Assembly: GCF_029227855.1 (NCBI RefSeq)
Contig: NZ_CP074356.1
DNA: 64,000 nt
Strand: one strand, 5' to 3'
Origin: Escherichia coli
Lineage (GTDB): Bacteria; Pseudomonadota; Gammaproteobacteria; Enterobacterales; Enterobacteriaceae
Below are positions 1 to 3,000 of this stretch, one piece after another; position 1 is the stretch's first letter, and each line of letters starts with the position of its first letter. The position numbers were made by a program.

Positions 1-3000
1 CCACCAGTCGCGGATCTCATCCAGCGGTTGATGGACGGATTCTTGCGACAGGAGTTCAAGCATTTGTTCGAGGACCTGGCGAGCATCCCCCACAATCGGG
101 ATATCAGCAGTCACGGTTTTAGAAATGGAAGTAGGATCAATATCGATATGCAGAACCGTGGCATTTGGGCAGTACTTCGCCAGATTGTTCGTCGTTCGGT
201 CATCAAAACGTACCCCGACGGCAAAAATCACATCCGCGTTATGCATCGTCATATTAGCTTCGTAGGTGCCGTGCATTCCCAGCATGCCCAGTGCCTGACG
301 ATGCGTTGCCGGAAACGCCCCCAGCCCCATTAATGAGGAAACAACGGGCAGATTCAACGCCTCCACCGTTTCTTTTAGCTGCTGATGACAGCCCGCCGTG
401 ATTGCCCCACCGCCTACATAGACAACCGGTTTTTTTGCCGCCACCAGCGTTTGCAGAGCGCGCTTAATTTGCCCTTTATGCCCGGAGGTAGTGGGATTGT
501 AAGATCGCATACTGACCGACTCCGGCCAGACGTAGGGTAATTTGTTCGCCGGATTAAGAATATCTTTGGGTAAATCAACGACCACGGGCCCAGGGCGACC
601 ACTTGCCGCCAGCCAGAAAGCCTTTTTCAGCACCTGCGGAATGTCTTCCGTTTGCTTAACCAGAAAACTGTGTTTAACCACCGGGCGAGAAATCCCCACC
701 ATGTCGCACTCCTGAAAGGCATCGTAGCCTATCAACGAGGTCGCTACCTGCCCGGAAAGGACAACTAAGGGAATGGAATCCATATAAGCGGTGGCAATGC
801 CAGTAATCGCATTGGTCGCCCCTGGACCCGACGTTACCAGCACGACGCCGACTTCCCCGGTCGCGCGCGCCAGACCATCGGCCATATGTACCGCCGCCTG
901 CTCATGACGAACTAAAACATGATCGATACCACCCACGGTATGCAATGCATCGTAAATATCAAGGACCGCGCCTCCGGGATAACCGAATACTTGTTTAACG
1001 CCCTGATCGATAAGCGATCGGACGACCATCTCGGCTCCAGACAACATCTCCATGGCCTGCCTCACTGTTTGACGGAAAAAAATGTGTAAAACACATTAAC
1101 CGTCCGATCTTGCTTAAGCAATTGGCAGCCTGAGACATAAACACGGGGTAATAAGAATAAACAGGAGGAAAGGTGAAAAGAAACGATAAAATCCTCCATT
1201 ACAGAGGATTAAATTGATAATAAATCGGCTGAATCCCACAACTTACAGCAATTTCTCTATTTTTTTAATTAATCCTAAAATAGCGAGATTACACATTCAG
1301 AATAAAATTCTACATTCAATAAAAAATGCAGAATAAACCAGACATTAATGTCTGACCTATTCTGCATTCAGTTAGCGTTTGCAAATTGAGACTAATTGCT
1401 CTTCCATCCACTGATGGCCTTTATCGCGCCCGGCAGCTTCATGCCAGGAGAGATAACAGGTTCTGCTATTTTGTTTTAACGGCAGCGGTAATACCTGTAA
1501 TTCTAAGGATTCAGCGAACTCTTCCGCCAGCCAACGCGGCGCAATAGCGACCAGATGCGTTTGCGACACCACGCTAAGTACGCTCATCATTGCCATGCCC
1601 TGATACGCGATACTGGCTTGCTTATCTACCGTGTCATACCACGGTTGACTAAATGACGCGAAACGATCGAGCGAAACCGCCGCATGTTGTTCGTTATAAA
1701 CATCATGTTTCAGTAACGGGCCTTTAATTGTTGGATGATTTTTGCTGGCTACCAGCACCATTTCATCTTTAAATAATGGCACGCTGGTAAATTCAGGACG
1801 ATGGAAGTCTTCATAACTAATCACAAACTCCGTTTCCTGATAACGCAGCTGATGTTCAGTGTTCTGATTTAATGAAGACTTGAACATAACATGTATATTT
1901 GGCGCAATCTGCTCAATGTGATTATAAATCTGCGAGGTCAGAATGCTGTCTAACGGGCTGCAGACACAAAGATGAAATACACGTTCACTACTGGCAGGCT
2001 CAAAGCCTGAACCTGGTAATTCATTTTGTACTAATTGCAATGCCTGACGAACTGAACCAAAAAGTTGAAATGCGCGAGCAGTCGGTTGAATACCACGGCC
2101 ATAACGAACAAAAAGCTCGTCATTAAACATCACCTTCAGGCGTGCAACAGCGTTACTGACCGCAGGTTGCGACATTCCCAGAACATGAGCGGCACGGGTG
2201 ATGTTTTGCTCCTGCATCACGGCATCGAAAACGGTTAATAAGTTGAGATCGACCATGCGTAGCTGTGGCTTGCTTAACTCCGCCGTCTCTGGATGATCTG
2301 TTTGTACCTCTGGCATACTTAACTCCACTGTCACACTTAACTCCCTTTCCCTTATTGGAATGCAGAGAAATAATCCTCGAGAATATGATTTATCATGCAT
2401 ATAAAATAAGAAAAAGGAAAATGAGTAAAATTAGGAAAACATAAAGATACGGGTTCTTATAAAAACAGAATCCATTGCCGTGGAAAGCGTCATTTACCAC
2501 AGCATAATAATCCATAATGTTTTTGTTGCGAAAACAATCTAATCATAACTACCACGAATACTCAATCATCCACAAAATGGATTAAATGTGCTTTTTTAAT
2601 AATTAATTTATATGTTTAATGCATTAATTCTTAACATTAATTGATCAATAATATTCACCAAATGAATATCAAAAAATTCGCAAAACATATAATTCAATAC
2701 AAATCATCAGGATAGGTTTTGCAACGCGTGCATTTTGCCCCCTTTTTCCTCGTTGATTAGATGCAAAATTTTATTTTGAAATATGTCAACCGATGAAAAG
2801 CGTCGGTAGTTAAGCAGAAATTAATATCGCTTACTTTAACCACCGCAGCACAATTAGCTAATTTTACGGATGCAGAACTCATGCTGGCGGGACGTTTTTA
2901 TTGCGTCAGGGTTGACATCCGTTTTTGTATCCAGTAACTCTAAAAGCATATCGCATTCATCTGGAGCTGATTTAATGACTCACATCGTTCGCTTTATCGG

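What the first reader, a model, noticed from the sequence alone, without database searches (positions are those of the whole stretch)
2317..2974. Long AT-rich leuO-leuL intergenic region
About 660 bp of very AT-rich sequence with runs such as ttaattaattta and aataatatt separates the divergent leuO and leuL. This is the classic H-NS-silenced leuO promoter region, expected for this locus and listed only for completeness.
Basis: established knowledge. Interest (0 to 1): 0.15.

Follow-up and report, generated by a model that had tools for sequence, protein, structure and literature searches.

The report
AT-rich leuO–leuL control region
This is the well-known long, AT-rich control region between the E. 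coli regulator gene leuO and the leucine operon, kept silent by the chromatin protein H-NS; it is real, correctly placed and ordinary for this locus.

Summary
Window 2317-2974 is exactly the 658-bp gap between the leuO start (minus strand) and the leuL start (plus strand). Its GC is 32.8% against 52.8% for the window, and it is the most AT-rich 658-bp stretch in the 64 kb. The AT-richness sits mainly in 2381-2712 (GC 26%), with a core at 2574-2698 (17.6%). One quoted run, 'ttaattaattta', is not verbatim; the sequence reads ataattaattta.

The region is 97.1% identical to E. coli K-12, where the literature reports H-NS binding at leuO in three genome-wide data sets and H-NS/StpA repression of two leuO promoters.

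I could place several published elements:
- the BglJ-RcsB box (2425-2446);
- the LeuO site I palindrome (2651-2669);
- the SlyA-bound fragment (2317-2660);
- a σ70-like promoter (2532-2504);
- the leuL promoter and the start of the Leu leader (from 2961).

In 78 Enterobacteriaceae species the spacer keeps its length (75 of 78 are 600-660 bp) and its AT content. Sequence is conserved only at the two ends, so this is ancestral core DNA, not a foreign insert.

Verdict: already known, low interest. The main side observation is a conserved in-frame upstream start codon for leuO (GTG, 2334-2332).

The parts
2317..2974 (.). Whole leuO-leuL intergenic region, 658 bp, GC 32.8%
   Evidence: 97.1% identical to K-12 83709-84367.
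1372..2316 (-). leuO (LysR-type regulator, 314 aa as annotated)
   Evidence: ORF; annotation of an identical-spacer genome; the exact protein is in the database as 'transcriptional regulator LeuO'.
2574..2698 (.). AT-richest core (GC 17.6%); likely H-NS nucleation or filament zone (inferred)
   Evidence: Lies inside the ortholog of the K-12 H-NS-bound 'promoter island'. An AT-richest 125-bp core (GC 13-30%) is present in all 78 species, at a median relative position of 0.48.
2361..2785 (.). Ortholog of K-12 'promoter island' 83898_426, reported as H-NS-bound in all ChIP data sets
   Evidence: PMC3661553 Table 1. Coordinates were transferred through alignment A1.
2317..2660 (.). Fragment bound by SlyA in EMSA (344 bp, primers TC51/TC52)
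   Evidence: The primer sequences in PMC5797941 match window 2317-2340 and the reverse complement of 2636-2660 (read).
2616..2627 (.). SlyA-like palindrome TTAATGCATTAA
   Evidence: Listed as '305 bp upstream of leuO' in PMC5797941; present in the window. The second listed site, at 2608-2619, carries one substitution relative to K-12.
2651..2669 (.). LeuO site I core: 7-5-7 palindrome ATATTCAccaaaTGAATAT
   Evidence: It is the only perfect 7-5-7 palindrome in the spacer. Its half-sites are identical to those of the only perfect one in the K-12 casA-cas3 spacer, ATATTCAtactgTGAATAT. It is unique in the window. PMC6698644 describes a 19-bp palindrome of two 7-bp half-sites 5 bp apart, shared by cas site II and leuO site I.
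2504..2532 (-). σ70-like promoter TTCGCA-17-TATTAT, reading towards leuO; candidate for the distal promoter P1 (assignment inferred)
   Evidence: Consensus scan. The same hexamers are given for leuO in the RpoD SELEX-chip study PMC3946193.
2425..2446 (-). BglJ-RcsB box CTTTATGTTTTCCTAATTTTAC
   Evidence: Near-identical to the bgl box CTTTATAAATTCCTAAAATTAC, which lies within 2 nt of the published centre, 76 bases upstream of the bgl start site (PMC3950696). Fits the published core wwTTCykA. Unique in the window, with 0 expected by chance. Identity 0.78 over 78 species.
2377..2403 (-). Inferred leuO P2 core: TG-extended -10-like TGaTAAATC (2395-2387), a T-N11-A box TATATGCATGATA (2403-2391), start site near 2377-2380
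   Evidence: Inference: the published box centre is 57 bases upstream of the P2 start site (PMC3950696), and the box centre is near 2436. The block 2383-2416 is 0.84 identical over 78 species.
2317..2346 (-). Conserved leuO leader: AAAGGGAG, 6 nt, GTG (2334-2332), then GGAG, 6 nt, annotated ATG
   Evidence: This block is better conserved (0.79) than the first 60 coding nt of leuO (0.54).
2845..2860 (.). Conserved element CAGCACAATTAGCTAA, containing the perfect palindrome AATTAGCTAATT (2852-2863); binder unknown
   Evidence: Identity 0.87 over 78 species. It resembles the Lrp consensus with 2-3 mismatches, but such matches occur at chance level in the window.
2912..2948 (+). leuLABCD promoter: -35 TTGACA (2912-2917), putative -10 TAACTC (2935-2940), start site near 2948
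   Evidence: The -35 hexamer is 0.98 identical and 2927-2966 is 0.87 identical over 78 species. The -10 and the start site are inferred from spacing and from my recollection of the K-12 start site.
2961..3110 (+). Leu leader / attenuator RNA (leuL 2975-3061, terminator 3082-3110)
   Evidence: Rfam RF00512, 145.8 bits against a gathering score of 50, E = 4e-33.

Best explanation
The interval is the shared, divergent control region of leuO and the leuLABCD operon of E. coli.

Its two ends carry conserved, sequence-specific machinery. On the right are the leuL promoter and the start of the leucine attenuator. On the left are the leuO ribosome-binding region, the proximal leuO promoter P2 with its BglJ-RcsB box, and further up a σ70-like promoter that may be the distal P1.

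The roughly 400 bp between them are very AT-rich. H-NS, with its paralog StpA, coats this stretch and keeps both leuO promoters off under ordinary growth. The silencing is relieved or modulated by proteins that bind inside the AT-rich stretch or next to it: LeuO itself (palindrome 2651-2669), BglJ-RcsB (2425-2446), SlyA and LrhA. Transcription-driven supercoiling from neighbouring promoters also relieves it; this is the 'promoter relay' described in Salmonella.

What is shown here: the anatomy, the composition, orthology to the K-12 region, the placement of the LeuO and BglJ-RcsB sites by sequence identity with published sites, and conservation across 78 species. What is taken from the literature: H-NS/StpA binding and repression, and the roles of the activators. 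What is inferred: the exact P1 and P2 positions, and that the AT-richest core is the nucleation zone.
For: Locus identity and exact limits. Lowest-GC 658-bp stretch of the window, about 10 points below the median intergenic gap. 97.1% identity to K-12.

Published H-NS evidence: ChIP binding at leuO in three data sets (PMC1636352; PMC5797941; PMC3661553). H-NS/StpA repression of P1 and P2, with BglJ-RcsB activation of P2 (PMC5025477; PMC3950696). An H-NS nucleation region upstream of Salmonella leuO (PMC6797219; PMC10981669).

Sites placed here: the BglJ-RcsB box and the LeuO palindrome are each unique in the window. The published separation of more than 100 bp between the LeuO and BglJ-RcsB sites fits the roughly 220 bp found here.

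Sequence properties: A/T tracts 35 per kb against 9.6, TpA steps 88 against 40 per kb, and H-NS-motif-like 10-mers 3.5 times denser than in the rest of the window.

Comparative: 75 of 78 species have a 600-660 bp spacer. Spacer GC is 31-44% against about 54% in leuA, and every species has a 125-bp core of GC 30% or less. Sequence identity is high only at the ends and in a few boxes.
Against: No experiment on this strain; H-NS occupancy is inferred. No site matches the H-NS high-affinity motif tCGATAAATT better than 2 mismatches, and the number of near-matches is what the base composition alone gives (Markov control, fraction at least as high 0.2-0.7). -10-like elements are 7 times denser than in the window, but again only as composition predicts, and the stricter promoter scan finds 2 against 3.0 expected. 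Nothing in the sequence beyond AT-richness therefore points specifically to H-NS. The P1 and P2 positions could not be checked against the original mapping paper (Stratmann et al. 2012), which is not held.
Confidence: 0.9

Rival explanations
1. It is an ordinary promoter-containing spacer. Intergenic DNA in E. coli is AT-rich anyway, and the length merely reflects two divergent promoters.
For: All intergenic gaps in the window are AT-richer than coding DNA (median GC 42.9%). Two other spacers are about as AT-rich: fixA-caiT at 32.2% and carA-dapB at 33.8%. The motif and promoter-like counts do not exceed composition-matched controls.
Against: At 658 bp it is 4.5 times the median gap and about 10 GC points below it. 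It holds a 125-bp core of 17.6% GC. Its length and composition are held constant in 75 of 78 species while the central sequence drifts. H-NS binding and silencing are published for the orthologous K-12 and Salmonella regions. The two comparably AT-rich spacers are themselves flagged in the literature (fixA-caiT as 'HNS'; dapB/carA as an H-NS-marked promoter island).
Confidence: 0.06
2. It is a remnant of horizontally acquired AT-rich DNA that H-NS silences as 'foreign' (xenogeneic silencing).
For: PMC3661553 lists the K-12 island as overlapping a GIST 'genomic island' and one foreign-gene prediction. leuO itself has lower GC (about 46%) than leuA (about 53%).
Against: The same gene order and a 600-660 bp AT-rich spacer occur in 75 of 78 Enterobacteriaceae species from more than 25 genera, with conserved promoter blocks at both ends. 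It is found in 5,399 of 5,426 complete E. coli genomes. This is ancestral core DNA.
Confidence: 0.02
3. The spacer hides an unannotated gene (a small protein or a small RNA) that accounts for its length.
For: Short ORFs of 20-59 aa exist on both strands. The leuO reading frame is open for 28 codons upstream of the annotated ATG, and 320-aa and 342-aa gene calls exist in databases.
Against: Rfam at a permissive threshold finds only the Leu leader. Neither K-12 nor the identical-spacer genome annotates anything here. The central 400 bp are poorly conserved, with many indels. There is no conserved RNA structure in the leuO leader. Only the 6 codons next to leuO are conserved, which would extend leuO rather than add a new gene.
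Confidence: 0.02

Closest known systems
E. coli K-12 leuL-leuO intergenic region (83709-84367): H-NS/StpA-silenced leuO promoters P1 and P2 with LeuO, BglJ-RcsB, LrhA and SlyA inputs
   Same: Orthologous, at 97.1% identity with one 1-bp indel. Same flanking genes and orientation. The BglJ-RcsB box, LeuO site I, the SlyA fragment and the RpoD-SELEX promoter hexamers are all present.
   Different: There are 18 substitutions and 1 indel, some of them inside known sites. LeuO site I is a perfect palindrome here (TGAATAT) but imperfect in K-12 (TCAATAT). The BglJ-RcsB box reads TTCCTAA here, as at bgl, but TTCCGAA in K-12; both fit the published degenerate motif. One SlyA-like site carries an A-to-G change.
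Salmonella ilvIH-leuO-leuABCD 'promoter relay' region with its 72-bp AT-rich silencer and LeuO boundary sites (Wu laboratory)
   Same: Same gene arrangement, with a 645-655 bp spacer at GC about 33% in the two Salmonella subspecies sampled. The blocks at both ends are conserved. H-NS nucleation upstream of leuO is reported (PMC6797219).
   Different: The central AT-rich sequence is not alignable with confidence (identity 0.3-0.46). The E. coli-type LeuO palindrome is not found at the equivalent place in Salmonella (best match 4-5 mismatches). The 72-bp silencer could not be placed, because the original papers are not held.
Other H-NS-bound AT-rich regulatory spacers or 'promoter islands' (for example fixA-caiT and carA-dapB in this same window, bgl, proU, casA-cas3)
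   Same: Long AT-rich spacers (GC 32-34%) with dense A/T tracts and promoter-like hexamers. They share regulators: LeuO and BglJ-RcsB act at bgl, and LeuO, LrhA and SlyA act at cas.
   Different: This one controls the gene for the H-NS antagonist itself, giving feedback loops. It is also the longest and the most AT-rich stretch of that length in the window.

Membership tests
H-NS-silenced leuO promoter region (E. coli / Salmonella) | Lies between divergent leuO and leuL/leuABCD | tested here: met
   leuO is on the minus strand at 1372-2316 and leuL on the plus strand at 2975-3061, with the Leu leader at 2961-3110.
H-NS-silenced leuO promoter region (E. coli / Salmonella) | Orthologous to the K-12 sequence in which H-NS binding was measured | tested here: met
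   97.1% identity over all 658 bp. H-NS binding is reported in PMC1636352, PMC5797941 and PMC3661553.
H-NS-silenced leuO promoter region (E. coli / Salmonella) | AT content far above the genomic background, with A-tracts and TpA steps | tested here: met
   GC 32.8% against 52.8%, with a core at 17.6%. A/T tracts 35 against 9.6 per kb; TpA 88 against 40 per kb.
H-NS-silenced leuO promoter region (E. coli / Salmonella) | High-affinity H-NS nucleation motif (tCGATAAATT; PMC2094087) | tested here: inconclusive
   The best matches have 2 mismatches. Near-matches are 3.5 times denser than in the rest of the window but no denser than in composition-matched random sequence.
H-NS-silenced leuO promoter region (E. 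coli / Salmonella) | H-NS/StpA occupancy and hns-dependent derepression in this strain | not testable with these tools
   Needs ChIP and reporter assays.
Leucine operon leader (Rfam RF00512) | Covariance-model match above the gathering score, with a leader peptide carrying a run of Leu codons and a terminator | tested here: met
   145.8 bits against 50, at 2961-3110. The leuL peptide is [28 protein letters not shown].
'Promoter island' (Panyukov and Ozoline, PMC3661553) | Ortholog of a listed island | tested here: met
   Island 83898_426, leuL(-)/leuO(+), maps to about 2361-2785.
'Promoter island' (Panyukov and Ozoline, PMC3661553) | Density of promoter-like sites in excess of what composition gives | tested here: not met
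   The strict scan finds 2 against 3.0±1.6 in shuffles. -10-like hexamers number 10 against 11.3±3.7 in a Markov control, although they are 7 times denser than in the window as a whole. The original definition uses PlatProm, which I could not run.
BglJ-RcsB-activated promoters | Box matching the published motif core wwTTCykA and the mapped bgl site | tested here: met
   2425-2446 shares CTTTATnnnTTCCTAAnnTTAC with the bgl box; unique in the window, 0 expected by chance (PMC3950696).
BglJ-RcsB-activated promoters | Box centre 57 bases upstream of the P2 start site | not testable with these tools
   The start site is inferred from the box, so the argument would be circular. The mapping paper is not held.
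LeuO (LysR-type) autoregulatory site | 19-bp palindrome of two 7-bp half-sites 5 bp apart, nearly identical to the cas core site | tested here: met
   ATATTCAccaaaTGAATAT at 2651-2669 against the cas site ATATTCAtactgTGAATAT (PMC6698644).
Horizontally acquired island silenced as foreign DNA | Patchy phylogenetic distribution, or absence from related genera | tested here: not met
   An AT-rich 600-660 bp spacer is present in 75 of 78 species from more than 25 genera and in 5,399 of 5,426 E. coli genomes.

The most novel reading that the evidence does not exclude
The left border of the 'intergenic' region may be misplaced. LeuO translation may start, wholly or partly, at a conserved in-frame GTG 18 nt upstream of the annotated ATG (window 2334-2332). 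That would give a 320-aa form and make 2317-2334 coding. A start-type codon (57 GTG, 15 ATG) sits there in 72 of 79 sequences, 6 nt after a conserved AAAGGGAG. All 8 species that lack a start codon at the annotated position have ATG at the upstream one. E. coli might therefore make two LeuO isoforms from tandem SD-start modules.
Probability: 0.3. Interest if true: 0.3.

Novelty: already known. Interest (0 to 1): 0.1.

Why it matters
leuO encodes a master antagonist of H-NS that switches on CRISPR-Cas, efflux, virulence and bgl genes, so the DNA that keeps leuO off is a key node. All of this is established for K-12 and Salmonella, and finding it here adds nothing new about the mechanism.

The modest added value lies in three points:
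- The published protein-binding sites are now mapped to coordinates in this strain, including natural variants inside the LeuO and BglJ-RcsB sites.
- Across Enterobacteriaceae the spacer's length and AT content are conserved but its central sequence is not. That fits a composition-read silencer and argues against a foreign origin.
- The leuO start codon is ambiguous.

Tried and rejected
- **Rfam, permissive threshold, 1-6000:** only the Leu leader. The other hits are sub-threshold chance matches to microRNA, sRNA and other leader families.
- **H-NS motif tCGATAAATT:** no enrichment beyond composition.
- **Promoter-like and -10-like density:** no excess over composition-matched controls.
- **Lrp consensus for the conserved element at 2845-2860:** matches with up to 3 mismatches are at chance level in the window (74 found, 64 expected), so I make no Lrp assignment.
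- **Conserved RNA structure in the leuO leader:** RNAalifold gives no consensus structure.
- **Longer leuO ORF from the ATG at 2400 (342 aa):** the region 2347-2382 is poorly conserved (identity 0.45, with indels that are not multiples of three), so I rejected it as a conserved coding extension.
- **Original mapping papers and supplements:** Stratmann 2012 and Fang & Wu 1998 are not held, and no supplement text is held for Kahramanoglou 2011 or Fragel 2019. P1, P2, LeuO site II, the LrhA site and the Salmonella 72-bp silencer could therefore not be placed from primary data.
- **Strain identity:** I first assumed the window was strain 2012C-4221. That was wrong: only the spacer is 100% identical, and the flanks are 96-100%. 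An intergenic table built on that assumption was discarded and redone.
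Full report
**1. The observation**

The window carries the E. coli ilvI-leuO-leuLABCD locus, in reverse orientation relative to K-12. 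The layout is:
- leuO: minus-strand ORF 1372-2316, start codon at the complement of 2314-2316.
- leuL: plus-strand ORF 2975-3061, peptide [28 protein letters not shown].
- leuA: starts at 3154.

Rfam finds the leucine operon leader at 2961-3110 with 145.8 bits, against a gathering score of 50. RefSeq annotation of a genome whose spacer is 100% identical gives the same gene limits.

Its GC is 32.8% against 52.8% for the window. No 658-bp stretch elsewhere in the 64 kb is as AT-rich: 41 of 63,343 windows reach that GC, and all of them overlap this region. Against the other 32 gaps between mapped genes (median 145 bp, median GC 42.9%), it is the longest that holds no unmapped gene and the third lowest in GC.

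The AT-richness is uneven. GC is 25.9% over 2381-2712 and 17.6% in the core 2574-2698, but 39.7% in the leuL-proximal 262 bp.

One quoted run, aataatatt, is present at 2647-2655. The other, ttaattaattta, is not verbatim; the sequence reads ATAATTAATTTA at 2599-2610.

**2. What it is**

The spacer is found in 5,399 of 5,426 complete E. coli genomes. It is 97.1% identical to K-12 83709-84367, with 18 substitutions and one 1-bp indel. Neither K-12 nor the identical-spacer genome annotates any feature inside it. Rfam at a permissive threshold adds nothing but the leader.

The K-12 literature therefore applies almost base for base:
- leuO has a distal promoter P1, fully active only in an hns stpA mutant, and a proximal P2 that BglJ-RcsB activates. 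Both are repressed by H-NS and StpA, and LeuO autoregulates (PMC5025477; PMC3950696).
- H-NS binding at leuO is shown by ChIP-chip (PMC1636352).
- leuO is listed as H-NS-bound in the Grainger, Kahramanoglou and Oshima data sets (PMC5797941).
- The 426-bp 'promoter island' at K-12 83898, which maps to about window 2361-2785, is marked H-NS-bound 'according to all studies' (PMC3661553).
- In Salmonella the same region holds a defined H-NS nucleation site. It is a model for silencing and for counter-silencing by transcription-driven supercoiling (PMC6797219; PMC10981669; promoter relay summarised in PMC4264507).

**3. Placing the published elements**

*LeuO site I.* PMC6698644 describes the LeuO core site as a 19-bp palindrome of two 7-bp half-sites 5 bp apart, found at cas and 'almost identical' in LeuO site I of leuO. 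The K-12 casA-cas3 spacer has one perfect palindrome of that form, ATATTCAtactgTGAATAT. The leuO-leuL spacer has exactly one as well, ATATTCAccaaaTGAATAT at 2651-2669, with identical half-sites. It is unique in the window. In K-12 the right half-site is TCAATAT, so this strain carries a perfect version.

*BglJ-RcsB box.* The paper gives the bgl start site and states that the BglJ-RcsB site is centred 76 bases upstream of it. In K-12 that position lies in CTTTATAAATTCCTAAAATTAC. The window has CTTTATGTTTTCCTAATTTTAC at 2425-2446 on the leuO strand. That match is unique in the window, with none expected by chance, and it fits the published core wwTTCykA. K-12 reads TTCCGAA at the degenerate k position.

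*P2.* The paper puts the leuO site 57 bases upstream of the P2 start site. That implies a start near 2377-2380, downstream of a TG-extended -10-like TGaTAAATC at 2395-2387. This is an inference.

*Candidate P1.* A σ70-like site TTCGCA-17-TATTAT (2532 to 2504, minus strand) was found by the consensus scan. It is the promoter assigned to leuO in the RpoD SELEX-chip study (PMC3946193). I propose it as the distal P1, without proof.

*SlyA.* The SlyA-bound EMSA fragment corresponds to 2317-2660 by its primer sequences, and the SlyA-like TTAATGCATTAA is at 2616-2627.

*leuL promoter.* On the right side, the leuL -35 hexamer TTGACA is at 2912-2917.

The LeuO and BglJ-RcsB sites lie about 220 bp apart, which fits the published 'more than 100 bp'.

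**4. Comparative evidence**

A scan for LeuO relatives returned 80 loci from more than 25 genera of Enterobacteriaceae, and 78 could be analysed.
- Spacer length is 567-759 bp (median 633), and 75 of 78 fall within 600-660 bp.
- Spacer GC is 31-44% (median 34%), against about 54% in leuA.
- Every species has a 125-bp core with GC of 30% or less, usually mid-spacer.

Identity to the window is high only at the ends and in a few boxes:

| Element | Window coordinates | Identity |
|---|---|---|
| leuO leader | 2317-2346 | 0.79 |
| P2 core | 2383-2416 | 0.84 |
| BglJ-RcsB box | 2425-2446 | 0.78 |
| CAGCACAATTAGCTAA | 2845-2860 | 0.87 |
| leuL -35 hexamer | 2912-2917 | 0.98 |
| leuL core promoter | 2927-2966 | 0.87 |
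| central stretches | 2447-2503; 2701-2844 | 0.30; 0.38 |
| AT-richest core | 2576-2700 | 0.46 |

So the length and composition of the middle are conserved while its sequence is not. That is what one expects of DNA read for its AT content by H-NS. It also shows that the spacer is ancestral core DNA rather than a foreign insert, despite its listing under a predicted 'genomic island'.

The E. coli-type LeuO palindrome at about 335 bp from the leuO ATG is confined to Escherichia.

**5. Mechanism and caveats**

The best-supported account is the established one. H-NS, with StpA, polymerises over the AT-rich middle and across the leuO promoters and keeps leuO off. LeuO, BglJ-RcsB, SlyA and LrhA bind inside or beside this stretch and, together with supercoiling from neighbouring transcription, modulate the silencing. 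The right end serves the leu operon, through its own promoter and the leucine attenuator.

The sequence itself shows nothing specific to H-NS beyond composition:
- Near-matches to the H-NS motif tCGATAAATT (PMC2094087) are 3.5 times denser than elsewhere in the window, but no denser than in composition-matched random sequence, and none is closer than 2 mismatches.
- -10-like hexamers are 7 times denser than in the window, but again as composition predicts.
- The strict promoter scan shows no excess.

H-NS occupancy in this strain is therefore inferred from orthology and composition.

**6. Rivals**

- *Ordinary spacer.* This does not explain the extreme length and composition, their conservation, or the published ChIP and genetic data.
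- *Foreign DNA.* This is contradicted by the family-wide conservation.
- *Hidden gene.* There is no Rfam hit, no annotation, no conserved ORF and no conserved RNA structure.

**7. Side observations**

*Upstream start codon for leuO.* The 30 nt upstream of the annotated leuO ATG are better conserved than the first 60 coding nt (0.79 against 0.54). They hold two tandem modules of a Shine-Dalgarno sequence, 6 nt and a start codon. The upstream module is AAAGGGAG-N6-GTG, with the GTG at 2334-2332, in frame and 6 codons before the ATG.

A start-type codon occupies that position in 72 of 79 sequences. The 8 species without a start codon at the annotated position all have ATG there. Databases hold 314-aa, 320-aa and 342-aa gene calls for this protein. 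The real N-terminus of LeuO is therefore uncertain, and the left border of the 'intergenic' region may lie 18 nt further in.

*Origin of the window.* The window is not from strain 2012C-4221. Only the spacer is identical, and the flanking genes are 96-100% identical.

*Other features.* The window carries two IS200-type transposase genes. It also has two more AT-rich spacers, fixA-caiT and carA-dapB.

**8. Verdict**

The feature is already known and expected at this locus, so interest is low.

Noticed in passing
window 2317-2346 (minus strand); upstream GTG at 2334-2332: There is a conserved in-frame upstream start codon for leuO, 6 codons before the annotated ATG and preceded by AAAGGGAG plus 6 nt. 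It is GTG or ATG in 72 of 79 Enterobacteriaceae sequences. All 8 species without a start codon at the annotated position have ATG here. 320-aa and 342-aa LeuO gene calls coexist with the 314-aa one in databases.
   Followed up: partly
window 2651-2669: The LeuO site I palindrome is perfect in this strain (ATATTCA-N5-TGAATAT). K-12 and three other Escherichia lineages each have one mismatch in the right half-site. Only 48 of 5,399 E. coli genomes share a spacer at least 99% identical to this one.
   Followed up: partly
window 2433 (within the BglJ-RcsB box 2425-2446): The box reads TTCCTAA here, identical to the bgl box, whereas K-12 reads TTCCGAA. Both variants occur across genera. The box and the adjacent P2 core are conserved across the 78 species sampled; I did not check which of them have bglJ.
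   Followed up: partly
window 2845-2863: CAGCACAATTAGCTAA, which includes the perfect 12-bp palindrome AATTAGCTAATT, is 0.87 identical over 78 species and lies about 50-65 bp upstream of the leuL -35 hexamer. I found no published binder. Its resemblance to the Lrp consensus (2-3 mismatches) is at chance level.
   Followed up: partly
window 2403-2440: Five A-tracts (T-tracts on the leuO strand) are spaced 7-9 bp apart within the conserved P2 and BglJ-RcsB block, which suggests intrinsic curvature.
   Followed up: no
window 7980-8489 (-) and 21334-21843 (+): There are two copies of an IS200-type transposase ORF (169 aa as listed, MGNEKSLAHTRWNCKYHIVFAPKYRR...). One lies between leuD and sgrT, where (from my recollection of the K-12 map) K-12 has setA. 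The other lies between araD and polB. Neither is present at these sites in strain 2012C-4221.
   Followed up: partly
window 45302-45773; 58084-58538; 1218-1371: Other very AT-rich spacers: fixA-caiT (472 bp, GC 32.2%), carA-dapB (455 bp, GC 33.8%) and yabR-leuO (154 bp, GC 29.2%). The first is flagged 'HNS' in PMC3946193, and the dapB/carA spacer is a listed promoter island marked H-NS-bound in PMC3661553.
   Followed up: partly
whole window compared with NZ_CP027437.1: The leuO-leuL spacer is 100% identical to strain 2012C-4221, but leuO itself is 98.3% and other genes are 96-100% identical. The window also lacks that strain's ccdAB pair between apaH and folA. This suggests a mosaic, recombined region or a different, unlisted source strain.
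   Followed up: partly
L083 (E. coli FDAARGOS_943, NZ_CP065615.1) 3288-4161: An IS1A element replaces leuO and the leuO-proximal ~497 bp of the spacer, leaving only the leuL-proximal 161 bp. This is a natural leuO deletion.
   Followed up: partly
window 28272-29228 and 10679-11332: Accessory genes absent from K-12 (from my recollection of the K-12 map): a transposase fragment plus an espY1-like T3SS effector gene between rluA and djlA, and a pentapeptide-repeat gene between sgrR and thiB. Both are only 78-88% identical to the copies in strain 2012C-4221.
   Followed up: no
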